IMG/VR virus record: IMGVR_UViG_3300028965_000008
Coordinates: 1-10,386 of that record
Source: a virus
Lineage: Duplodnaviria; Heunggongvirae; Uroviricota; Caudoviricetes
Length of the DNA: 10,386 nucleotides
Strand: one strand, 5' to 3'
Shown here: in pieces, positions 369-8,665 of the stretch
How the letters are laid out: each line of letters opens with the position of its first letter
Position numbering within the stretch: the stretch's first letter is position 1
Program-made: the position numbers and the translations under genes
Notes under the pieces: generated by a model
Seen by the model: the letters and a program-made list of their open reading frames with translations, nothing else
Database searches by the model: none
Told to the model about the DNA's origin: nothing

Positions 369-776
369 TTATTTGTTTGCGCTTCTTTTGCGAGCTTTGA
401 GTAGTTCTTCAAAAAGTTTGTTGAAATTTTCAACTCGAGCACGCATCTCTGACAACAGGGCCTTTTGCTCTGACTCAGGCAGTGCGTCGAACAGTTGAAG
501 TAACTCTTTTTGATCTTCTGTCAGAATGGCTGGTTGATTATCCGGGAGCGGTTCGCCTGGTTGTTTATCTTCATCCCCAAAAAGAAGCCAAGTCGGTGAG
601 CACTGAAGCGCTTGGCTCAGTGCGAATAATCTTTTCCCCGCCGGCTGTGTTTCATCTCTTTCCCATTGAGAAATTGTTACGTGAGCCACTTTGACCAGCT
701 TACCTAATGCGGCCTGAGACAGTTTTAATTTTTTACGCCTATGTAAGAGGCGAGCACCGAAGGTTTCGTTTTTCAT
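369..776 (-). CDS. dicA: HTH (XRE-family) prophage repressor, DicA-like (CI/C2 functional analogue), 135 aa
   Basis: ORF translation MKNETFGARLLHRRKKLKLSQAALGKLVKVAHVTISQWERDETQPAGKRLFALSQALQCSPTWLLFGDEDKQP...NFNKLFEELLKARKRS closely resembles E. coli DicA as recalled, with the HTH at the N-terminus; divergent from the Cro-like gene. Confidence 0.85.
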   Translation of the reverse strand: MKNETFGARLLHRRKKLKLSQAALGKLVKVAHVTISQWERDETQPAGKRLFALSQALQCSPTWLLFGDEDKQPGEPLPDNQPAILTEDQKELLQLFDALPESEQKALLSEMRARVENFNKLFEELLKARKRSANK

Positions 777-1080: not shown

Positions 1081-1615
1081 ACAGGTTTGTGAGGCTCTGG
1101 ATGCCTGGGTATGCCGACCAGGAATGACACAGGAGCAGGCGACGATATTAATCACGGAAGCATTCTGGGCTCTGAAAGAACGCCCGAACATTGATGTTCA
1201 ACGCGTCACGTTTGATGATGGCGCGGTTGATCAACGGGCACTGGGCGTTAACCGGGTGAAGATATTCGAACGCTGGAAAGCTATCGACACCAGGGATAAG
1301 CGTGAAAAATTCACGGCGCTGATTCCGGCAATTATGGAGGCTATCCGGATCAGCGATTTCAGGTTGTATTGTGAAATTACTGACGGAAAAAGCATTACGT
1401 ACATGATCGCCGGGTTAAACAAAGAATATGGCGATGTGGTGGAGTCCGGGCTGCTTTTTGCGGATCCAGCTGTTGTGGAGCGTGAGACTGACGAGCTTAT
1501 AGAAAAAGCTATTGCTTTCAAGCATGCGTATCGTCAGCAATACCAACATTACTTTGCAGATAAACAAATATCTGTCTGGGGTTCGTATGAGTATCGATGC
1601 ACTACGATGGGCTAA
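1064..1615 (+). CDS. YdaT-like protein (CII-position prophage regulator/toxin family), 183 aa
   Basis: ATG at 1064 overlaps the dicC stop. The segment DKREKFTALIPAIMEAI resembles the conserved core of Rac YdaT; position immediately after cro matches the cII slot. Confidence 0.55.
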   Translation: MKITPEQVCEALDAWVCRPGMTQEQATILITEAFWALKERPNIDVQRVTFDDGAVDQRALGVNRVKIFERWKAIDTRDKREKFTALIPAIMEAIRISDFRLYCEITDGKSITYMIAGLNKEYGDVVESGLLFADPAVVERETDELIEKAIAFKHAYRQQYQHYFADKQISVWGSYEYRCTTMG

Positions 1616-2627
1616 AAAGGTGAAAACCGGCAGTTCATCCAGCAAGTCAGTATTGACCTGGCTTGCTGATATGTGCGGTGCCGATTTGTGTGCATACCCG
1701 TCTGTATCTGCACTGGCAGAAGTAACGGAACTGAACAAAAAGACTGTGCAGGACAGCTTACGACACCTGATGGAGATTGGGTTAATTGTTGATACCGGTG
1801 AGAGAAAAGGCAGAACAAAGCAAATTGTGGTGTACCGACTTATCGGTGTAGAAGAAAGTGTTGCCGAGCCTGAATACACCCAAAAACGGGAGTCTTTAAA
1901 GGTGGGTAAAATTGGTGCTGTTAATAAAAACAGTACCGAAAATGGTTATGTTTCAGCACAAAACAGCCCCAAAAACGGAACTCTTAGCTGCATGGAAAAT
2001 AACCAAAGACACCCAAATTTTCCATCAAAGACACCCAAAAACGGATCACGGAACCCAAAGGAACCCAAAGATCTAACCCCCACACATAACGCACGCGAGA
2101 GTGCTCCGACCAGTGAGCAGGAAGTTTTGTCGTTACAGGCAGCACCCCCTGTATTCCTGGGTGGCCTGAGCGAACCCATCGGAAAATTTCCGATGACCGA
2201 TAGCTGGTATCCGTCACGGGATTTTCGACGACGGGCTGCGTTGTGGGGGATGGCTTTGCCGGAGACAGAATTTACACCTGCTGAACTTGCCGCCTTCCGG
2301 GACTACTGGGCAGCGGAGGGGAAAGTATTTACGCAGATTCAGTGGGAGCAGAAATTCGCCCGTCACGTAAATCACGTCAGGGCGCAGGTTAAACCAGTCA
2401 GCAAGGGGGTGAACCATGCAGCAGCACCAGGTGGCACCGCATCACGGGCAGTTCAGGAAATTCGGGCAGCACGTGAGCAGTGGGAACGTGAAAACGGATT
2501 TATCAGCGACGGAAACGGCCTGGAAGCTGTGGGAACTCATGGGGGAGGTTTATTCGAACCGCTGGACTCAGAAGAACGGGGCCGCACCTTCGAAGCTCTG
2601 GATTGCACAGATTGGCGCGATGACTGA
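1587..2627 (+). CDS. Replication initiator (O-like): N-terminal HTH replication domain plus DnaT-like C-terminal domain
   Basis: The first ATG of the ORF is at 1512, but the ATG at 1587 (MSIDALRWAKKV...) just overlaps the YdaT-like stop. The C-terminal segment GKFPMTDSWYPSRDFRRRAALWGMALPETEFTPAELAAFRDYWAAEGKVFTQIQWEQKFAR resembles the E. coli DnaT C-terminus ([26 protein letters not shown]...[20 protein letters not shown]). The 3' end is uncertain because of the overlap with the next gene. Confidence 0.7.
   Translation: MSIDALRWAKKVKTGSSSSKSVLTWLADMCGADLCAYPSVSALAEVTELNKKTVQDSLRHLMEIGLIVDTGERKGRTKQIVVYRLIGVEESVAEPEYTQKRESLKVGKIGAVNKNSTENGYVSAQNSPKNGTLSCMENNQRHPNFPSKTPKNGSRNPKEPKDLTPTHNARESAPTSEQEVLSLQAAPPVFLGGLSEPIGKFPMTDSWYPSRDFRRRAALWGMALPETEFTPAELAAFRDYWAAEGKVFTQIQWEQKFARHVNHVRAQVKPVSKGVNHAAAPGGTASRAVQEIRAAREQWERENGFISDGNGLEAVGTHGGGLFEPLDSEERGRTFEALDCTDWRDD
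1967..2070. repeat. Iteron-like direct repeats inside the initiator gene (candidate replication origin)
   Basis: Five copies of the core (A/C)CCCAAA at 1967, 2011, 2033, 2053 and 2063, including a perfect tandem GAACCCAAAG x2 (2051-2070) and the longer repeat CAAAGACACCCAAA at 2004-2017 and 2026-2039; spacings are about 10, 20 and 22 bp; an AT-richer stretch lies at 1911-1960. Confidence 0.5.
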
Positions 2628-3081
2628 GCAGCAAATCCGGCAGGTCTGCCGCCAGTGCATGGACCGTTGCAGGGCAGGTGAAACATGGCCTCCGGACCTG
2701 GCTGAGTTTGTGGCGCTGATTTCGGAGAGCGGGGCAAATCCATTTGGTCTGACGGTGGATAACGTGATGGAGGAGTACCGACGCTGGCGCAACGAGTCCT
2801 GGCGATACGACGGAAGCGATAAATACCCGTGGTCTCAGCCTGTGCTGTATCACATTTGTCTCGAGATGCGTTCAAAGGGGATTGAGCGCCAGATGACCGA
2901 AGGGGAATTAAAACGGCTTGCAGAACGGCAACTGACGAAATGGGCAAAGCATGTTGGTAACGGACTGAGTGTTCCACCCGTCCGTAGGCAACTGGCAGCA
3001 CCCATACGTCCTGCGGGACCAACGCCAATTGAGTTGCTGAAACAGGAATATGAACGCAGGAAAGCGGCAGGTTTTGTTTGA
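2416..3081 (+). CDS. Lambda P-like replication protein (helicase loader), about 221 aa
   Basis: Similarity to lambda P as recalled: AGETWPPDLAEFVALISES versus PFLPSPGQFVAWCREE, a conserved YPW, and ELKRLAERQL versus ELRRKAADEL. Strong SD AAGGGGG 5 nt before the ATG at 2416. Alternative starts are ATG 2539 and ATG 2620; the latter overlaps the upstream stop as ATGACTGA. Confidence 0.7.
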   Translation: MQQHQVAPHHGQFRKFGQHVSSGNVKTDLSATETAWKLWELMGEVYSNRWTQKNGAAPSKLWIAQIGAMTEQQIRQVCRQCMDRCRAGETWPPDLAEFVALISESGANPFGLTVDNVMEEYRRWRNESWRYDGSDKYPWSQPVLYHICLEMRSKGIERQMTEGELKRLAERQLTKWAKHVGNGLSVPPVRRQLAAPIRPAGPTPIELLKQEYERRKAAGFV

Positions 3082-3110: not shown

Positions 3111-3506
3111 ATGGCGAAACCTTTTACACCCGAACAGCGGGAAGAGCTGAAGGCACGAATTATCGGATTGGTACGCAAAAATGGACGCATGACGATGTCG
3201 CAACTGGAGAGAGCGACGGGAGCTGGCTGGCATTCGGTCCGACGCTGCCTTGTGGATGTACTGGCTTGTGGTGATTTATACATGTCCGGGGAATACGGTG
3301 TTTTTGCATCAGAGCAGGCGTATCGTGAATGGCGTAAGACACCGGAGAAAACAACTGACCAGACACTGATTCGAAAGTTACCAGACGGAGAAATACGCCG
3401 CTACGACAGACACCTGAACATAATCTGTCGCGAGTGCCGGAAGAGTGAGGTTATGCAGCGAGTGCTGGCGTTTTATCAGGGGAAATTTCAGGAGGTGATG
3501 CTGTGA
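3111..3506 (+). CDS. Hypothetical prophage protein, 131 aa, possible winged-helix N-terminus
   Basis: SD GGGAGGG 4 nt upstream of ATG 3111. The N-terminus LKARIIGLVRKNGRMTMSQLERATGAGWHSVRRCL looks like a wHTH, judged by eye; no family recognised. Confidence 0.55.
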   Translation: MAKPFTPEQREELKARIIGLVRKNGRMTMSQLERATGAGWHSVRRCLVDVLACGDLYMSGEYGVFASEQAYREWRKTPEKTTDQTLIRKLPDGEIRRYDRHLNIICRECRKSEVMQRVLAFYQGKFQEVML

Positions 3507-3745
3507 GCGAATCAAAATGTCAGGTTAATGGCAATCAGTTAGAACTATGTGCGGCACTGGCAAAAGCCCTTGAGCATGATGCTGAATACACGATGCGAAA
3601 AGGTCTGCTGATATACAAAATCTGGAATGAGAATTTAACTCGCGCCCCTGATTTGGTGATGTTGCGTTCCGGTGAATTTTCTAAATCACCTATTCGAGTC
3701 TCATTTTGCCCGTTCTGTGGTGAAAGTCTGAAAACATGGAAATAA
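3503..3745 (+). CDS. Hypothetical small protein, 80 aa, GTG start, Cys-containing C-terminus (CPFCG)
   Basis: GTG at 3503 overlaps the upstream stop (GTGA); strong SD AGGAGGTGA at 3490-3498. Confidence 0.5.
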   Translation: MSESKCQVNGNQLELCAALAKALEHDAEYTMRKGLLIYKIWNENLTRAPDLVMLRSGEFSKSPIRVSFCPFCGESLKTWK

Positions 3746-3756
3746 GGAGACAACCA

Positions 3757-4281
3757 GTGAGCAAGATTGACTATCAGGCACTGCGTGGGGCGGCAGAAGC
3801 AATAAAAATAGCAGCCACACCACAAAAATTGCTGGCATTTCGTATGAAAGCCACACCTCAGGTTGTGTTGGAACTGCTGGATGAACTGGAAATTAAAAGC
3901 AAACGAATTAACGAGTTAATCAAGGGTGGTGAAAACGCCAAATACGTGACTGAAATTTTCCGACTTGAGAAAGAACGCATGGCGCTGGCGGCGGAGAATG
4001 CGGGGCTGAATAAATTTATCGTACAGAGTTGCTACGTGTTTGATGGCGAGCAGGATGAACTATCTGATGCGTATATCTGCGCAACAGACGGAGGTATGCC
4101 GCAAACCCCGGCTACAGATGCTTTCCTGGCTGATGTACGGGCGGTGGCGTTTGACGAACTTCGCGCGGCGTTTGTCAGGCACGTAAAAGTTGCAGGACTG
4201 GATGAGGCCGATACCGTAACGCTTAAGGAAGTGACAGAAGCATTGTTGCATTGTGCGGAACAGATTCGCGCGCCTGAATAA
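3757..4281 (+). CDS. Ead/Ea22-like family prophage protein
   Basis: The ORF is open from ATG 3736, but a GTG at 3757 has SD AAGGAG 7 nt upstream and lies after the upstream stop at 3745. SKIDYQALRGAAEAIK... with a coiled-coil-like N-terminus resembles Ead/Ea22-like proteins; family assignment is from memory. Confidence 0.55.
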   Translation: MSKIDYQALRGAAEAIKIAATPQKLLAFRMKATPQVVLELLDELEIKSKRINELIKGGENAKYVTEIFRLEKERMALAAENAGLNKFIVQSCYVFDGEQDELSDAYICATDGGMPQTPATDAFLADVRAVAFDELRAAFVRHVKVAGLDEADTVTLKEVTEALLHCAEQIRAPE

Positions 4282-4375
4282 TTAAATTTAGTGTTGTAAA
4301 TAAAATTTAATCCTTAACCGGAGGGATTTCTGCACCCTCAGAACATCAGGAGGCCGCCCGAAAGGGCGGTAATGA

Positions 4376-4594
4376 ATGGTCACATTATTCAGAAAAAAAT
4401 ATCCACGAAAGAGTAGAACAACAGAATTTCTGTTTCTCATTCTGTTTATCGTGTTGATGATACCGATATCCCCGCTAATTTTTGTCTGGGCAATCGGGAA
4501 AATAATTGAGCCAGTTATTGAATTGTATAACGACGTGGTGTGGGCGTCGTTCAACACACTGCACAATAAAATTAACCCGTATAAGGAAAGCTGA
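4376..4594 (+). CDS. Small predicted membrane protein, 72 aa
   Basis: Hydrophobic stretch FLFLILFIVLMIPISPLIFVWAIG; lies in an AT-rich segment; its stop at 4592-4594 sits directly before the HNH gene ATG at 4596 (translational coupling). A minus-strand ORF (4288..4602) overlaps it, so strand assignment is not certain. Confidence 0.45.
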   Translation: MVTLFRKKYPRKSRTTEFLFLILFIVLMIPISPLIFVWAIGKIIEPVIELYNDVVWASFNTLHNKINPYKES

Positions 4595-4595
4595 T

Positions 4596-4961
4596 ATGGC
4601 ACTGACGAAAAAGCAACGTGCAGAACTGCGCATGAAGTTCGGTGGTCGCTGTGCTTATTGCGGCTGCGAACTTGGCGAAAAGTGGCATGCAGACCATGTA
4701 AAACCGGTCATTCGTTTTGATGGAAATATGCTTCACCAGGAACGTGACGGTATATCCAACATGGTTCCGGCATGCCACCCATGCAATCTGCACAAGCATT
4801 GCAGTAGCCTGGAAGATTATCGGCGAATTATCAGTGATGGTCGTCGTGAATTCCTTGCGTCCGGGAAAGGCAAAGCGCTGGTTCGTATGGGATTGGTTGA
4901 AATGAAACCTGACCCGGTTGTGTTCTGGTTTGAAAAATATCAAGAAGGGGCTACAGCATGA
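4596..4961 (+). CDS. HNH endonuclease, 121 aa
   Basis: MALTKKQRAELRMKFGGRCAYCGCEL...HADHVKPV...NMVPACHPCNLHK carries the HNH signature (CxxC, H-N-H, CxxC); SD AAGGAAAG 5 nt before the ATG at 4596. Confidence 0.8.
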   Translation: MALTKKQRAELRMKFGGRCAYCGCELGEKWHADHVKPVIRFDGNMLHQERDGISNMVPACHPCNLHKHCSSLEDYRRIISDGRREFLASGKGKALVRMGLVEMKPDPVVFWFEKYQEGATA

Positions 4962-5521
4962 CCACTTTTACCAATAGCAAACTAACAGACGAATACGTTT
5001 CAAATGCAACGTTGATTCGGCTCATTCTGTGGGCTGACCAGCACAATAGTCATTATGTTGCAGCGGCTCTGCGCGAGCTACAGGAGCGCCGCAAGGCTGA
5101 TAGTGTGCCTGTAGAAATCAACGACGACATGGCTTACGCATTCCATCGCGCACTGTCAGATTCATCGCCAGGCGCTGATGAGGTAGAGGAAATTAAGACA
5201 GGGTTGCGTGCAGCCTTTGCCAATGTCACCACCCAACCAGCACCAGTAGTGCCGGAATTTGAAACATGGTTTAACAGCCAGGAGTCAGGGAGGAGTATAT
5301 GCAGCACACAGATTCGTCGTTACCTTCAGGAAATTTCATGGAACGCCTGCCGCGCCGCCATGCTTAAGGGAGATAAATCACGATTAATCGAACCAAACTG
5401 GAGCACATTCTCGAATATGCCAGGCAGCAGAAATGTATTGGGCAACTTTGTAAAATTCCACCAGGAGATATGGTTGAAATCGTGGAAATTGCCATGCGCA
5501 AGGCTGGCAACTCTCCGGTAA
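4958..5521 (+). CDS. Hypothetical prophage protein, 187 aa as read; the 3' end may be frameshifted into the DUF551 gene
   Basis: ATG at 4958 overlaps the HNH stop (ATGA), with SD GAAGGGG. The C-terminal tail WLKSWKLPCARLATLR looks non-native, while the alternative frame is open from 5377 and reads protein-like sequence. Confidence 0.5.
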   Translation: MTTFTNSKLTDEYVSNATLIRLILWADQHNSHYVAAALRELQERRKADSVPVEINDDMAYAFHRALSDSSPGADEVEEIKTGLRAAFANVTTQPAPVVPEFETWFNSQESGRSICSTQIRRYLQEISWNACRAAMLKGDKSRLIEPNWSTFSNMPGSRNVLGNFVKFHQEIWLKSWKLPCARLATLR

Positions 5522-5739
5522 CTCCGGATGGTTGGATAAGCTGTAGTGAGCGAATGCCGGATACCAAAACAGCCGTTCTTGTTGCCGTGGAGTTTGACAG
5601 GAAAGGTGACTGGCGAATGAAATGGGCGACTTACATCCCGGGGCATCCTGACGCTAATGATGGGTGGATAATTCCTGGTGCGTCGTGGAAACCGTCACAC
5701 TGGATGCCGCTACCGGAACCGCCACAGGAGGTGAGTTAA
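5470..5739 (+). CDS. DUF551 domain protein, 89 aa from ATG 5470
   Basis: The C-terminus ...DGWIIPGASWKPSHWMPLPEPP is typical of DUF551 prophage proteins as recalled. AGGAG lies only 2 nt before the ATG, and the frame is open upstream to 5377 with no canonical start, so the true N-terminus is uncertain. Confidence 0.6.
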   Translation: MVEIVEIAMRKAGNSPVTPDGWISCSERMPDTKTAVLVAVEFDRKGDWRMKWATYIPGHPDANDGWIIPGASWKPSHWMPLPEPPQEVS

Positions 5740-5983: not shown

Positions 5984-6094
5984 GCTAAAAATTTTTATCC
6001 GCATTAGACTAATCTAACCTTAGTACTACACTATTAATTACGCGCCAGGTTGGTGCGTTGGCCTTGCCAAAAGAACTTCAAGGGAAACGACAAG

Positions 6095-6274
6095 ATGAGC
6101 TACGCACTCAAGAAACACACACGGCTAAATATTCCGCCTCGCGACAAACGGGTTGTGGCAGCCCCTCGCCCGGCGATTGATGAAAACTGCACTCATCGTG
6201 AGCAGGTGAAAAATGCTTTCGATTTCGGTTTTTCTCGTTACGAGAAGGCAATGGAAGAACTTTCAAAAGTGTAA
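6095..6274 (+). CDS. Small protein, 59 aa; putative partner (antitoxin candidate) of the downstream Doc-family toxin
   Basis: ATG at 6095 (MSYALKKHTRL...) with SD-like AGGGAAA 9 nt upstream; ends 18 nt before the Doc ORF. No resemblance to Phd/YefM or YhfG noted by eye. Confidence 0.5.
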   Translation: MSYALKKHTRLNIPPRDKRVVAAPRPAIDENCTHREQVKNAFDFGFSRYEKAMEELSKV

Positions 6275-6292
6275 TGATGGGTATTGTGCTCT

Positions 6293-6772
6293 ATGGCTGA
6301 GATTGTTGAAGGAGTGCATTACCTTACGGTTGATGATCTTGTTGAAATCAATCGTTCCCTAATTGAATTACAGACGCCAGATGAGCCCGTTGGTGTTCTG
6401 AGTCCAGATAGCTTAAGTTCTTCTCAGGCCCGTCCCAGCATGGTTCGATGGTATGAACAGACTAATGACATGTTTGTACTGGTATCGGTATTGATTGAAA
6501 GTCTGATTCAGAATCATCCGTTTGCTAATGCGAACAAACGAACAGCTATGATGGCTGGTTACGTCTTCTTGTTGTTGAATGGCTATGAGTTAACAGCACC
6601 AGGCGATGAAATCGTGGAAATGGCAGAGGGACTGGCCTGCAAAACCTATACTCGAGAAGATCTCGAGAACTGGTTGTGTTATTGGTCTCGTGCGTATGAC
6701 AGCCGGGAATTATGTAAAACAGGCGCAACTATTGTTTTGTATGAAACTATCAAGCTTAAAATAGAACAGTAA
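6293..6772 (+). CDS. Doc (death-on-curing) / Fic-fold family toxin
   Basis: HPFANANKRTAMMAGYVFLLLNGYEL matches the Doc signature HxFx(D/N)(A/G)NKR and resembles P1 Doc (HIFNDANKRTAL...FLRRNG). Start is ATG 6293 or the in-frame TTG at 6284. Confidence 0.8.
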   Translation: MAEIVEGVHYLTVDDLVEINRSLIELQTPDEPVGVLSPDSLSSSQARPSMVRWYEQTNDMFVLVSVLIESLIQNHPFANANKRTAMMAGYVFLLLNGYELTAPGDEIVEMAEGLACKTYTREDLENWLCYWSRAYDSRELCKTGATIVLYETIKLKIEQ

Positions 6773-6792
6773 AACTAAAGGTGCTTCTAATG

Positions 6793-6816
6793 AAAACCCG
6801 CTTCGGCGGGTTTTTT
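6793..6816 (+). terminator. Rho-independent terminator
   Basis: GC stem CCCGC (6797-6801) / GCGGG (6806-6810), flanked by A and T runs, with a UUCG tetraloop and a T6 tract at 6811-6816; lies 21 nt after the Doc stop. Confidence 0.75.
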
Positions 6817-7007
6817 GTTGTTTATCTTCGGTGAGCTTGATGCATCTGGTTGTACTGATGTGGCTGTCTGATTTTGTTATTCAGGTGGCTTATTGCTGTT
6901 GATTGGTATGTCTTCACGGCTAGAATCGAGGCTCTTAAGTAGCGCGCAGGGAGAAGAGGGATGGACCCCGAACAGGGGAGTGCTATTTATCTGGAAGGAT
7001 TCTGTTG

Positions 7008-7615: not shown

Positions 7616-8665
7616 GTGCGGGTATTGCTTCGACCTGTTCCGGTACCGGAACTCGGGCTGGTGGTCTTTAAGCCTGGTCGTGAATCCATGCAGGTATTTC
7701 ATAACCCTCGAGTGCTGGTGGAGCCGGAACCGAAAAGCATGCGCGGTCTGCCGTCCGGAGTTGTTCCTGCCGTTCGCCAGCCGCTGGCAGAAGATAAATC
7801 ATTGCTGCCATTTTTCAGCGACGAACGGGTGATTCGTGCTGCCGGCGGCGCTGGTGCACTGTCTGACTGGCTCCTGCGTCATGTTAAATCCTGCCAGTGG
7901 TCTCATGGTGACTACCATCACAGTGAAACCGTCATACATCGTTACGGTACCGGCGCGATGGTGTTGTGCTGGCACTGCGACAACCAGCTGCGTGACCAGA
8001 CCTCAGAATCACTTGAGCAACTTGCTCAACAAAACCTGACAGCATGGATGATTGACGTCATCCGTCACGCAATAAGCGGTGCGCAGGAGCGTGAATTATC
8101 GCTGGCTGAATTATCCTGGTGGGCTGTCTGCAATCAGGTGGTGGACGCACTACCGGAGGTAGTATTACGTCGTTCTCTGGGGTTACGTGCGGAAAAAATT
8201 CGCTCGGTGTACCGCGAAAGCGACATCATACCGGGAGAGCAGACCGCCACCAGCATACTGAAGCAGCGCACAAAAAATCTTGCGCCGTTGCCTCACGCCC
8301 ACCAGCAACCGAACCCACCACAGGAAAAGACGGTGGTCAGTATCGCCGTTGATCCGGAGTCTCCTGAATCTTTCATGAAGCGACCTAAACGTCGCCGTTG
8401 GGTGAATGAGAAATACACGCGTTGGGTAAAGACACAGCCGTGTGCGTGTTGTGGTAAGCCAGCAGACGATCCCCATCACCTGATTGGTCATGGTCAGGGC
8501 GGGATGGGAACAAAATCCCACGATATTTTCACGCTACCGTTGTGTCGGGAGCATCACAACGAGCTTCATGCGGATCCGCTGGCGTTCGAAGAAAAGCATG
8601 GTTCCCAGATTGATTTAATTTTTCGTTTTCTTGATCACGCCTTTGCAACCGGCGTGCTCGGGTAA
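7616..8665 (+). CDS. DUF968 domain protein (YdfU-like), 349 aa, with a Cys/His-rich C-terminal module
   Basis: GTG start at 7616 with GGAGG 5 nt upstream. C-terminus CACCGKPADDPHHLIGHG...CREHHNELH; length and position (before rusA/Q) match Qin YdfU as recalled. Confidence 0.7.
   Translation: MRVLLRPVPVPELGLVVFKPGRESMQVFHNPRVLVEPEPKSMRGLPSGVVPAVRQPLAEDKSLLPFFSDERVIRAAGGAGALSDWLLRHVKSCQWSHGDYHHSETVIHRYGTGAMVLCWHCDNQLRDQTSESLEQLAQQNLTAWMIDVIRHAISGAQERELSLAELSWWAVCNQVVDALPEVVLRRSLGLRAEKIRSVYRESDIIPGEQTATSILKQRTKNLAPLPHAHQQPNPPQEKTVVSIAVDPESPESFMKRPKRRRWVNEKYTRWVKTQPCACCGKPADDPHHLIGHGQGGMGTKSHDIFTLPLCREHHNELHADPLAFEEKHGSQIDLIFRFLDHAFATGVLG

What the first reader, a model, noticed from the sequence alone, without database searches (positions are those of the whole stretch)
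4282..4961. AT-rich insert: small membrane protein translationally coupled to an HNH endonuclease
The segment from about 4282 to 4600 is visibly more AT-rich than the flanking prophage genes, suggesting a separately acquired moron. It encodes a 72-aa protein with one strongly hydrophobic segment (FLFLILFIVLMIPISPLIFVWAIG) whose stop lies one nucleotide before the start of a 121-aa HNH nuclease. A membrane protein coupled to a small nuclease is unusual for a simple homing endonuclease and could be a two-component defence, exclusion or abortive-infection module; equally it may be a free-standing HNH homing endonuclease with a fortuitous upstream ORF.
Basis: partly seen in the sequence, partly recalled or inferred. 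Interest (0 to 1): 0.5.

Follow-up and report, generated by a model that had tools for sequence, protein, structure and literature searches.

The report
Two unlinked prophage accessory gene cassettes
The small membrane-protein gene and the HNH nuclease gene are both real. They are separate, already catalogued accessory genes that lie side by side in a shuffled gene array of a lambda-like prophage, so this is ordinary and not a two-part defence system.

Summary
Bases 4282-4600 are 39.5% GC against 48.5% for the window. A 72-aa single-pass membrane protein (4376-4594) ends one base before a 121-aa HNH nuclease (4596-4961).

The interpretation as a coupled module does not hold.
- The small ORF is a full-length member of Pfam DUF4014 (phrog_1832).
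- The HNH is a bare Cys4-zinc HNH core.
- Each gene is common without the other. Among 5426 complete E. coli genomes, DUF4014 is in 825, the full HNH in 385, and the pair in 217.
- In P22-like phages and HK225 the order is reversed (HNH then DUF4014), and the HNH is again present in some and absent in others.
- The same TGA-N-ATG junction joins DUF4014 to at least 10 other gene families.
- The HNH follows many other upstream genes, mostly Ea22-like.
- The HNH is about three times less diverged at synonymous sites than the DUF4014 gene beside it.
- The HNH family spans Enterobacterales and beyond. DUF4014 is confined to Escherichia, Shigella and Salmonella elements.
- No promoter, terminator, Rfam or defence-system match was found.

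Best reading: these are two independent cassettes of the Ea22-type accessory array, and the HNH is a mobile, probably homing-type, nuclease cassette. Interest is low.

The parts
4282..4375 (+). Portable 94-nt non-coding leader between the Ea22-like gene and DUF4014
   Evidence: This stretch alone (query 1-95) matches well over a thousand E. coli genomes at 87-95% identity, at places with no annotated feature. In other prophages it precedes a DUF7167 gene instead. No Rfam family, promoter-like or terminator-like site was found. The RNA fold has a z-score of -2.6.
4348..4378 (+). Translation start region: AGGAGG (4348-4353), hairpin GCCGCCC-GAAA-GGGCGGT (4353-4370), 5 nt, ATG (4376)
   Evidence: Read directly from the sequence. 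The same Shine-Dalgarno, hairpin, 5-8 nt, ATG layout precedes three unrelated gene families in related loci. All stem variants seen keep pairing. Its function as a hairpin that brings a distant Shine-Dalgarno site close to the start codon is inferred, not shown.
4376..4594 (+). DUF4014 family gene: 72-aa single-pass membrane protein
   Evidence: PF13198 full length, E 1.6e-25. phrog_1832, E 9.7e-45. Length and 24 invariant residues are kept across homologues about 50% identical. dN/dS is 0.22-0.26. RefSeq annotates it as 'DUF4014 family protein'.
4427..4498 (+). Transmembrane segment (residues 18-41, FLFLILFIVLMIPISPLIFVWAIG)
   Evidence: Kyte-Doolittle hydropathy up to 2.96. A positively charged N-terminus (+5) precedes it.
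4583..4598 (+). Gene junction: AAGGAAA Shine-Dalgarno inside the DUF4014 3' end, TGA (4592-4594), T, ATG (4596)
   Evidence: The same 1-nt junction links DUF4014 to at least 10 other downstream gene families.
4596..4961 (+). Free-standing 121-aa HNH (His-Me finger) nuclease cassette with a Cys4 zinc site
4958..4961 (+). ATGA stop/start overlap with the next cassette (phrog_12449 gene, 4958-5521)
   Evidence: Downstream neighbours of the HNH differ between loci, but all start at this same overlap.

Best explanation
The segment holds two independent accessory genes of the hypervariable Ea22-type gene array found in lambdoid and P22-like prophages. Here the array lies in the early-right operon, between replication gene P and the nin/Q region.

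Gene 1 is a DUF4014 protein of 72 aa, a single-pass inner-membrane protein, probably N-in and C-out. A portable leader with a Shine-Dalgarno, hairpin, ATG layout sits in front of it and probably starts its translation.

Gene 2 is a minimal Cys4-zinc HNH nuclease.

They are neighbours because both are cassettes that slot into the same array through short conserved junction sequences (...GGAG..TGA-N-ATG..., with similar first codons such as MA(T)LTKK or MTTxTKE). The 1-nt stop/start spacing is the grammar of the whole array. It is not a device that couples these two proteins.

Shown here: the two genes are separable, their order can be reversed, they have different evolutionary histories, the junction is generic, and both are under purifying selection.

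Inferred: the HNH is a mobile, homing-type or marker-exclusion nuclease. It would be made during lytic growth, and it would nick or cut related genomes that lack it, so that recombinational repair copies it in together with a short stretch of the neighbouring gene. DUF4014 would act on its own at the inner membrane; its target is unknown.
For: Identity of the genes:
- DUF4014 is a curated family matched end to end.
- The HNH fold and catalytic residues are confirmed.

Separability in IMG/VR loci:
- Of 80 loci with a DUF4014 at least 90% identical, 29 have the HNH directly downstream, 2 have it one gene away, 45 lack it and 4 cannot be judged. One that lacks it has a 100% identical DUF4014.
- Of 79 loci with an HNH at least 88% identical, 42 have DUF4014 upstream and 35 have none. 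Two of those 35 have a 99% identical HNH.

Separability in 5426 complete E. coli genomes: DUF4014 is in 825, the full HNH in 385, and the joint segment in 217.

Public phage records: 130 match the DNA of this stretch, and only 4 of them cover the DUF4014-plus-HNH stretch. 933W has a different 95-aa gene at the same 1-nt junction.

Reversed order: it is HNH then DUF4014 in HK225, g341c and BIS08P22. Of 42 loci with the Salmonella-type DUF4014, 11 have the HNH upstream and 31 have an Ead-like gene there instead, a clean filled-site versus empty-site polymorphism.

Generic junction:
- At least 10 downstream families share the 1-nt junction.
- HNH-only loci have diverse upstream genes, mostly Ea22-like and ending AAGIxVKGE*.

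Different histories:
- In the same 29 haplotypes, dS is 0.247 for DUF4014 and 0.088 for the HNH.
- Diversity falls from 0.12-0.16 at the DUF4014 5' end to 0.02 at the junction.
- The HNH has more than 686 clusters across Enterobacterales and beyond, and occurs in T1-like, T4-like, Acinetobacter, Vibrio and Streptococcus phages. DUF4014 has 142 clusters, nearly all named ones from Escherichia, Shigella or Salmonella.

Literature: a survey of lambdoid phages also notes sporadic, apparently mobile HNH genes (PMC12315714).
Against: - The pairing is more frequent than random placement would give. About 56% of E. coli genomes with this HNH have it next to DUF4014, and three HNH subtypes abut DUF4014 on one side or the other. 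I attribute this to a shared preference for the position after Ea22, plus hitch-hiking, but I ran no phylogeny-aware test.
- The HNH is only 121 aa and shows no recognisable sequence-specific DNA-binding domain, which is atypical for classical homing endonucleases.
- Its very low dN/dS (0.04-0.06) would also fit an enzyme that is useful to the phage.
- Every cassette of this array is sporadic, so sporadic distribution alone does not prove homing.
- The function of DUF4014 is unknown. The legacy labels 'sugar acetyltransferase inhibitor' and 'released from the phage upon host infection' have no support that I could find.
Confidence: 0.75

Rival explanations
1. The HNH is not selfish. It is a phage-beneficial early enzyme, for example one that nicks or cuts DNA to feed recombination-dependent replication, degrades host or competitor DNA, or assists packaging. 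It simply travels as a cassette like its neighbours. DUF4014 remains unrelated to it.
For: Purifying selection on the HNH is very strong (dN/dS 0.04-0.06). The protein is a bare catalytic core without a specificity domain. Its nearest small structural relatives are the Gme and GVE2 nicking HNH enzymes. It lies in an early operon beside other DNA-transaction genes, namely DUF968/HNHc_6 and RusA. The literature lists several roles for phage HNH genes.
Against: It is absent from most otherwise similar prophages, so it is dispensable. It is not adjacent to terminase genes and has no detectable similarity to HK97 gp74. The window already encodes other junction and HNH-like nucleases.
Confidence: 0.3
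2. DUF4014 and the HNH form a functional two-protein module. A membrane protein would sense or anchor, and the nuclease would act as effector in exclusion or abortive infection.
For: The two genes are adjacent in 217 E. coli genomes and in about half of the close HNH loci. HNH subtypes abut DUF4014 in both orders in distant phages. One natural 194-aa DUF4014-HNH fusion exists (P0002). The HNH has weak domain-level similarity to PtuB and to retron HNH effectors.
Against: Each gene is common alone, even at 99-100% identity. Order is not conserved. Synonymous divergence differs threefold. The HNH ranges far beyond the taxa that carry DUF4014. The junction is generic. DUF4014 has no PADLOC hit. 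There is no own promoter, so expression from the repressed prophage is not expected. The fusion is a single sequence.
Confidence: 0.05
3. The AT-rich block 4282-4600 is a classical moron: a separately acquired, autonomously transcribed lysogenic-conversion gene encoding an envelope-modifying membrane protein.
For: The GC content of the block is 9 points below the window mean. The leader travels with different genes. Legacy annotations call homologues 'sugar acetyltransferase inhibitor'. Small phage proteins that alter O-antigen are known (Gnarl proteins, PMC12373910).
Against: No promoter-like or terminator-like site lies in 3600-5600 on either strand. In 933W and P22-like phages the gene has no leader and is joined to its upstream gene by the 1-nt junction, so it is operon-embedded. 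The low GC is expected for a Phe/Ile/Leu-rich membrane protein. I found no experimental support for the acetyltransferase label.
Confidence: 0.1

Closest known systems
Pfam DUF4014 (PF13198) / PHROG 1832, e.g. 933W L0067, ES18 gp39, epsilon34 gp27, g341c gp23
   Same: Full-length match. It has the same 72-aa length, the same basic N-terminus, transmembrane segment and conserved HNK(I/L)NPY tail, and the same position after Ea22/Ead-like genes.
   Different: Nothing substantive; it is an ordinary member. In this window it has a 94-nt leader rather than a direct 1-nt junction with the upstream gene.
Free-standing phage HNH endonuclease cassettes (PHROG 2118; ArgO145 gp11, HK225 gp55, g341c gp24, IMM-001 HNH, RB49-group HNH)
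   Same: 98% identical to ArgO145 gp11, and 42-77% identical to homologues in T1-like, T4-like and P22-like phages. It shows the same sporadic presence and absence between conserved neighbours.
   Different: Classical characterised homing endonucleases such as I-HmuI and the Mob and Seg enzymes (from my own knowledge) are larger and carry DNA-binding modules. This protein is only the catalytic core plus a few helices.
HK97 gp74-type terminase-associated HNH proteins (Kala et al. 2014, cited)
   Same: Similar size (119 vs 121 aa) and a bare HNH core.
   Different: There is no detectable sequence similarity (BLASTP found none; hhalign probability 0.5%). The gene lies in the early region, not next to terminase.
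Septu PtuB / retron-associated HNH effectors
   Same: They share the HNH fold and the CxxC...HxDH motif region.
   Different: The hits are weak, domain-only and far below family cut-offs (TIGR02646 19.7 bits against a cut-off of 52). No PtuA ATPase or retron partner is present.
Start regions where a hairpin brings a distant Shine-Dalgarno site close to the start codon (T4 genes 38 and 25; from my own memory, not checked here)
   Same: AGGAGG lies 22 nt upstream of the ATG, and a stable GNRA hairpin in between would shorten the effective spacing to about 5 nt. The layout is conserved before three gene families.
   Different: It is untested. The only evidence is conservation plus a few pairing-preserving substitutions.

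Membership tests
Pfam DUF4014 (PF13198) | Full-length match to the family profile above the gathering score | tested here: met
   89.7 bits against a cut-off of 23.2; residues 1-71 match profile positions 1-71 of 72. phrog_1832, E 9.7e-45.
HNH / His-Me finger nucleases (PF01844) | Profile match, with the catalytic His, the structural Asn and the metal ligands conserved | tested here: met
   25.5 bits against a cut-off of 21.4. C19, C22, H31, D33, H34, N55, C60, C63 and N64 are invariant in 37 homologues.
HNH / His-Me finger nucleases (PF01844) | Beta-beta-alpha-metal fold | tested here: met
Free-standing homing endonuclease | Presence/absence polymorphism at a precise site between conserved flanking genes | tested here: met
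   Ead-like then DUF4014 (empty site, 31 loci) versus Ead-like, HNH, DUF4014 (filled site, 11 loci). DUF4014 followed by the HNH or by other genes at one and the same junction.
Free-standing homing endonuclease | Element younger than its flanks, with a co-conversion gradient in the flanking gene | tested here: met
   dS is 0.088 for the HNH and 0.247 for DUF4014. Diversity falls towards the junction. Ordinary cassette recombination would give the same pattern.
Free-standing homing endonuclease | Sequence-specific DNA-binding module or long recognition site | tested here: inconclusive
   No extra domain was found by Pfam, PHROGs or fold search; the protein is 121 aa of HNH core plus helices. 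Specificity itself cannot be read from the sequence.
Free-standing homing endonuclease | Cleaves the endonuclease-less allele and is over-transmitted in crosses | not testable with these tools
   Needs nuclease assays and phage crosses.
Two-gene anti-phage defence or abortive-infection module | Obligate co-occurrence of the two genes in a conserved order | tested here: not met
   Each gene is frequent alone. The order is reversed in HK225, g341c and BIS08P22.
Two-gene anti-phage defence or abortive-infection module | Match to a known defence-system protein model | tested here: not met
   In PADLOC, DUF4014 has no hit, and the HNH has only partial PtuB and PDC-M01B hits of 30 bits or less.
Two-gene anti-phage defence or abortive-infection module | Protective phenotype that requires both genes | not testable with these tools
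   Needs plaque assays.
Moron (autonomous lysogenic-conversion cassette) | Own promoter and terminator flanking the gene | tested here: not met
   There are 0 promoter-like and 0 terminator-like sites in 3600-5600 on either strand. This was a consensus scan only.
Moron (autonomous lysogenic-conversion cassette) | Base composition differs from the surrounding phage genes | tested here: met
   39.5% against 48.5% GC, but only for the leader plus DUF4014, not for the HNH.
HK97 gp74-type packaging HNH | Sequence relatedness to gp74 and a position next to terminase genes | tested here: not met
   No BLASTP alignment; hhalign probability 0.5%. The gene lies between replication and nin/Q genes.

The most novel reading that the evidence does not exclude
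The enrichment of DUF4014-HNH adjacency is not just linkage. About 56% of E. coli genomes with this HNH show it, and HNH subtypes flank DUF4014 on either side in distant phages. One possibility is that the HNH family homes specifically to the Ea22/DUF4014 junction region, with the DUF4014 gene as its recognition target. The other is that the membrane protein modulates the nuclease, giving a facultative membrane-tethered exclusion pair.
Probability: 0.07. Interest if true: 0.45.

Novelty: already known. Interest (0 to 1): 0.15.

Why it matters
It matters little as a discovery. Both genes are already annotated in RefSeq as 'DUF4014 family protein' and 'HNH endonuclease', and the same pair sits in phage ArgO145 and in hundreds of E. 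coli prophages.

The useful result is negative. Tight stop/start coupling in lambdoid accessory arrays is generic junction grammar, and it should not be read as evidence of a functional pair.

Two things remain worth a modest follow-up:
- DUF4014 is a widespread small membrane protein with no known function.
- The portable leader with its Shine-Dalgarno, hairpin, ATG layout is found in a large share of E. coli genomes.

Tried and rejected
- An Rfam scan of the whole window at E<=1 found nothing in 4282-4961. The only hits were sub-threshold rsmX/istR hits on a terminator at 6727-6817.
- The promoter and terminator scan of 3600-5600 found none.
- PADLOC gave nothing for DUF4014. NCBIfam gave nothing for DUF4014 and only far sub-threshold IscB and retron-HNH hits for the HNH.
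- PDB sequence searches gave nothing for DUF4014. For the HNH the best hit was the Gme HNH, 4H9D, at E 0.056.
- Literature searches for 'DUF4014', for 'epsilon15' plus 'acetyltransferase inhibitor', and for 'released from the phage upon host infection' gave 0 papers. The epsilon15 genome paper (PMC2698709) is not held. The two legacy product names could therefore not be traced to any experiment.
- Gnarl small proteins (PMC12373910) were considered as an analogue for DUF4014. Nothing links them by sequence, so this stays an analogy only.
- The genome-contig scan returned only 2 species representatives and added little.
- The HK97 gp74 packaging-HNH idea was rejected.
- Structure prediction of the natural fusion P0002 as a proxy for an interaction test was considered and not run, because the tool returns no inter-domain error estimates.

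Full report
**Setting.** The window is the early-right region of a lambdoid (Rac/P22-Cro-type) prophage of Escherichia. In order it holds:
- an HTH repressor (369-776, minus strand), a P22-type Cro (853-1080) and a YdaT-like gene;
- a DnaT-domain replication initiator and lambda-P-like replication genes (1512-3081);
- a run of small, tightly packed accessory genes: DUF977 (3111-3506), an 80-aa gene, an Ea22-like gene (3736-4281), the two genes of the finding, a phrog_12449 gene (4958-5521) and a DUF551 gene;
- a Fic/Doc gene, DUF968/HNHc_6, RusA and antiterminator Q.

**Observation.** The coordinates and features are correct.
- The 72-aa ORF runs from 4376 to 4594. TGA is at 4592-4594, a single T at 4595 and ATG at 4596. 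The 121-aa ORF ends at 4961, and its stop overlaps the next start (ATGA).
- Residues 18-41 form a strongly hydrophobic segment (Kyte-Doolittle up to 2.96). It is preceded by a +5 N-terminus, which suggests an N-in, C-out single-pass inner-membrane protein.
- Bases 4282-4600 are 39.5% GC against 48.5% for the window, within the lowest 1% of equal-sized windows. The dip belongs to the membrane-protein gene (37.9%) and its leader. The HNH gene (48.9%) has the same composition as both flanking genes. Composition therefore does not mark the two genes as one insert.

**What the genes are.**
- The small ORF is an end-to-end member of Pfam DUF4014 (E 1.6e-25) and of phrog_1832. RefSeq annotates it as such.
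- Its homologues keep the 72-aa length and 24 invariant residues at about 50% identity, and dN/dS is 0.22-0.26. It is a real gene, not a chance ORF.
- The family is narrow: 142 clusters at 90% identity, with nearly all named ones from Escherichia, Shigella or Salmonella prophages and phage-plasmids.
- Its product names in some records, 'sugar acetyltransferase inhibitor' and 'released from the phage upon host infection', could not be traced to any paper.
- The second ORF matches PF01844 and phrog_2118. It has an invariant CxxC...HxDH...N...CxxCN set.
- It models confidently (pLDDT 88.7) as an HNH core plus helices. Its nearest solved folds are Cas9 HNH domains, McrA, Cap5, the GVE2 and Gme nicking HNH enzymes, and PtuB. 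No additional DNA-binding domain is seen.
- It is unrelated by sequence to the packaging HNH gp74 of HK97.

**Are they a pair?** The evidence says no.
- In public phage genomes, 130 records match the DNA of this stretch and only 4 of them cover the DUF4014-plus-HNH stretch: ArgO145, held as two records, and two Stx2a phages.
- In 933W, DUF4014 (L0067) is followed at the identical 1-nt spacing by an unrelated 95-aa gene.
- Of 80 IMG/VR loci with a DUF4014 at least 90% identical, 29 have the HNH directly downstream, 2 have it one gene further on, 45 lack it and 4 are too short to tell. A locus with a 100% identical DUF4014 lacks it.
- Of 79 loci with an HNH at least 88% identical, 42 have DUF4014 upstream and 35 have none. 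Two of those 35 have a 99% identical HNH.
- Among 5426 complete E. coli genomes, DUF4014 occurs in 825, the full-length HNH in 385, and the joint segment in 217.
- In HK225 and the P22-like Salmonella phages g341c and BIS08P22, an HNH 50-61% identical lies immediately upstream of DUF4014, the reverse order. ES18, epsilon34 and P6 have DUF4014 with no HNH.
- Of 42 loci with the Salmonella-type DUF4014, 11 have the HNH upstream and 31 have an Ead-like gene joined directly to DUF4014.
- The HNH family is also far broader than DUF4014. It has more than 686 clusters in Yersinia, Klebsiella, Pantoea, Providencia and beyond. It also occurs in T1-like, T4-like, Acinetobacter, Vibrio, Caulobacter and Streptococcus phages that have no DUF4014.

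**The coupling is generic.**
- At the same TGA-N-ATG junction, DUF4014 is followed by at least 10 different gene families, all with similar first codons (MA(T)LTKK..., MTTITRE..., MTITTKE...).
- Upstream neighbours of the HNH in HNH-only loci are diverse. Most are Ea22/Ead-like proteins ending AAGIxVKGE*, whose last codons supply GGAG, TGA and one base before the ATG.
- The HNH's own stop overlaps the ATG of whichever gene follows, and those genes again begin MTT(F/I)T....
- Within the window the neighbouring genes are joined in the same way, with -4, -10, +1 and -4 nt.
- The stop/start arrangement is therefore the array's junction grammar, and it presumably serves as micro-homology for cassette exchange. 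It says nothing specific about these two proteins.

**Different histories.** In the 29 distinct DUF4014-HNH haplotypes, synonymous divergence is 0.247 in DUF4014 and only 0.088 in the HNH. Nucleotide diversity falls from 0.12-0.16 at the DUF4014 5' end to 0.02 at the junction. The HNH has therefore spread recently onto already diverged DUF4014 alleles, carrying a short piece of the neighbour with it. That pattern fits homing by double-strand-break repair. It fits ordinary cassette recombination equally well.

**Expression context.** No promoter-like or terminator-like site lies in 3600-5600 on either strand, and there is no Rfam match. The genes sit inside the early-right operon and are expected to be expressed during lytic growth, not from the repressed prophage. 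That is a poor fit for a prophage-encoded defence module or a classical moron. PADLOC has no model for DUF4014 and gives only weak domain-level PtuB hits for the HNH.

**Mechanism I commit to.** These are two independent cassettes (confidence about 0.75).
- For the HNH, I favour a mobile homing-type or marker-exclusion nuclease. The support is its precise filled and empty sites, its younger age than its flank, the diversity gradient, and its occurrence in unrelated phage types.
- Against that reading are the lack of a specificity domain and the very strong purifying selection (dN/dS 0.04-0.06). The main rival is therefore a phage-beneficial early nickase or cutter (about 0.3).
- A survey of lambdoid phages likewise describes sporadic, apparently mobile HNH genes outside the recombination modules, and warns against reading function from position (PMC12315714).
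- DUF4014 most likely acts alone at the inner membrane. Its target is unknown.

**Residual doubt.** Adjacency is enriched: 56% of E. coli genomes with this HNH have it next to DUF4014, and three HNH subtypes abut DUF4014 on one side or the other. There is also a single natural 194-aa fusion (P0002). I attribute this to both cassettes preferring the slot after Ea22-like genes, plus linkage. A site preference of the HNH for the DUF4014 region, or a facultative functional link, is not excluded (about 0.07).

**Side finding inside the coordinates.**
- The 94-nt leader (4282-4375) is itself a portable element. On its own it matches well over a thousand E. coli genomes, at places with no annotated feature, and it precedes other genes such as DUF7167.
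- It carries AGGAGG (4348-4353), a GCCGCCC-GAAA-GGGCGGT hairpin (4353-4370), 5 nt and then the ATG.
- The same layout precedes three unrelated gene families, and every stem variant seen preserves pairing.
- This looks like a start region in which a hairpin brings a distant Shine-Dalgarno site close to the start codon. I recall this for T4 genes 38 and 25 from memory and have not checked it here. It is untested.

**Verdict.** The module interpretation is not supported. The genes are known families in a known kind of mosaic array. Interest is low.

Noticed in passing
window 4282-4375 (hairpin 4353-4370): The intergenic leader is a portable element. On its own it matches well over a thousand E. 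coli genomes, at places with no annotated feature. Its layout of AGGAGG, a GNRA hairpin, 5 nt and ATG recurs before DUF4014, a 60-aa DUF7167 gene and a 135-aa gene. All stem variants seen keep pairing. It may be a start region where a hairpin brings a distant Shine-Dalgarno site close to the start codon. It has no Rfam family.
   Followed up: partly
window 3111-5739 and loci L001-L218: The whole accessory array uses one junction grammar. Upstream genes end ...AAGI(K/G)VKGE* or ...KGE*, which supplies GGAG, TGA and one base before the ATG. Downstream genes begin MTT(F/I)TKE.. or MA(T)LTKK... These short shared ends probably serve as recombination joints for cassette shuffling.
   Followed up: partly
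window 4911-4961: The last 50 or so bases of the HNH gene (...VVFWFEKYQEGATA*) occur alone in roughly 320 E. coli genomes, across the boundary of two other hypothetical genes. A 35-residue match of 57% identity also appears in several IMG/VR loci. These are either remnants of HNH loss or a shared 3' joint.
   Followed up: no
window 4589-4591; loci: DUF4014 alleles next to the HNH end KES (AGC). Most HNH-less alleles end KEN (AAC). This is a linked polymorphism one codon before the stop.
   Followed up: no
window 6727-6817: A strong intrinsic terminator (AAAACCCGCTTCGGCGGGTTTTTT) lies just after the Fic/Doc-family gene (6284-6772). It produced sub-threshold Rfam hits to rsmX and istR. With the unannotated 74-aa ORF at 6050-6274 upstream, this Fic/Doc unit is a better candidate than the finding for an autonomous two-gene moron or toxin-antitoxin pair.
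   Followed up: no
window 7616-8665: The window holds a second, unrelated HNH-like nuclease gene (DUF968 with a weak HNHc_6 match) directly upstream of RusA. The prophage thus carries several DNA-cutting functions in its early-right operon.
   Followed up: no
P0002 (Shigella sonnei, 194 aa); L009:1995-2450 (phage D6): There is a single natural DUF4014-HNH fusion protein. In phage D6, DUF4014 is fused to its different downstream gene. Both look like loss of the stop at the 1-nt junction rather than designed fusions.
   Followed up: no
L037, L087: Some IMG/VR prophage fragments carry two DUF4014 copies, or extra HNH-tail fragments, within a few kb. This suggests repeated cassette duplication or exchange inside a single array.
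   Followed up: no
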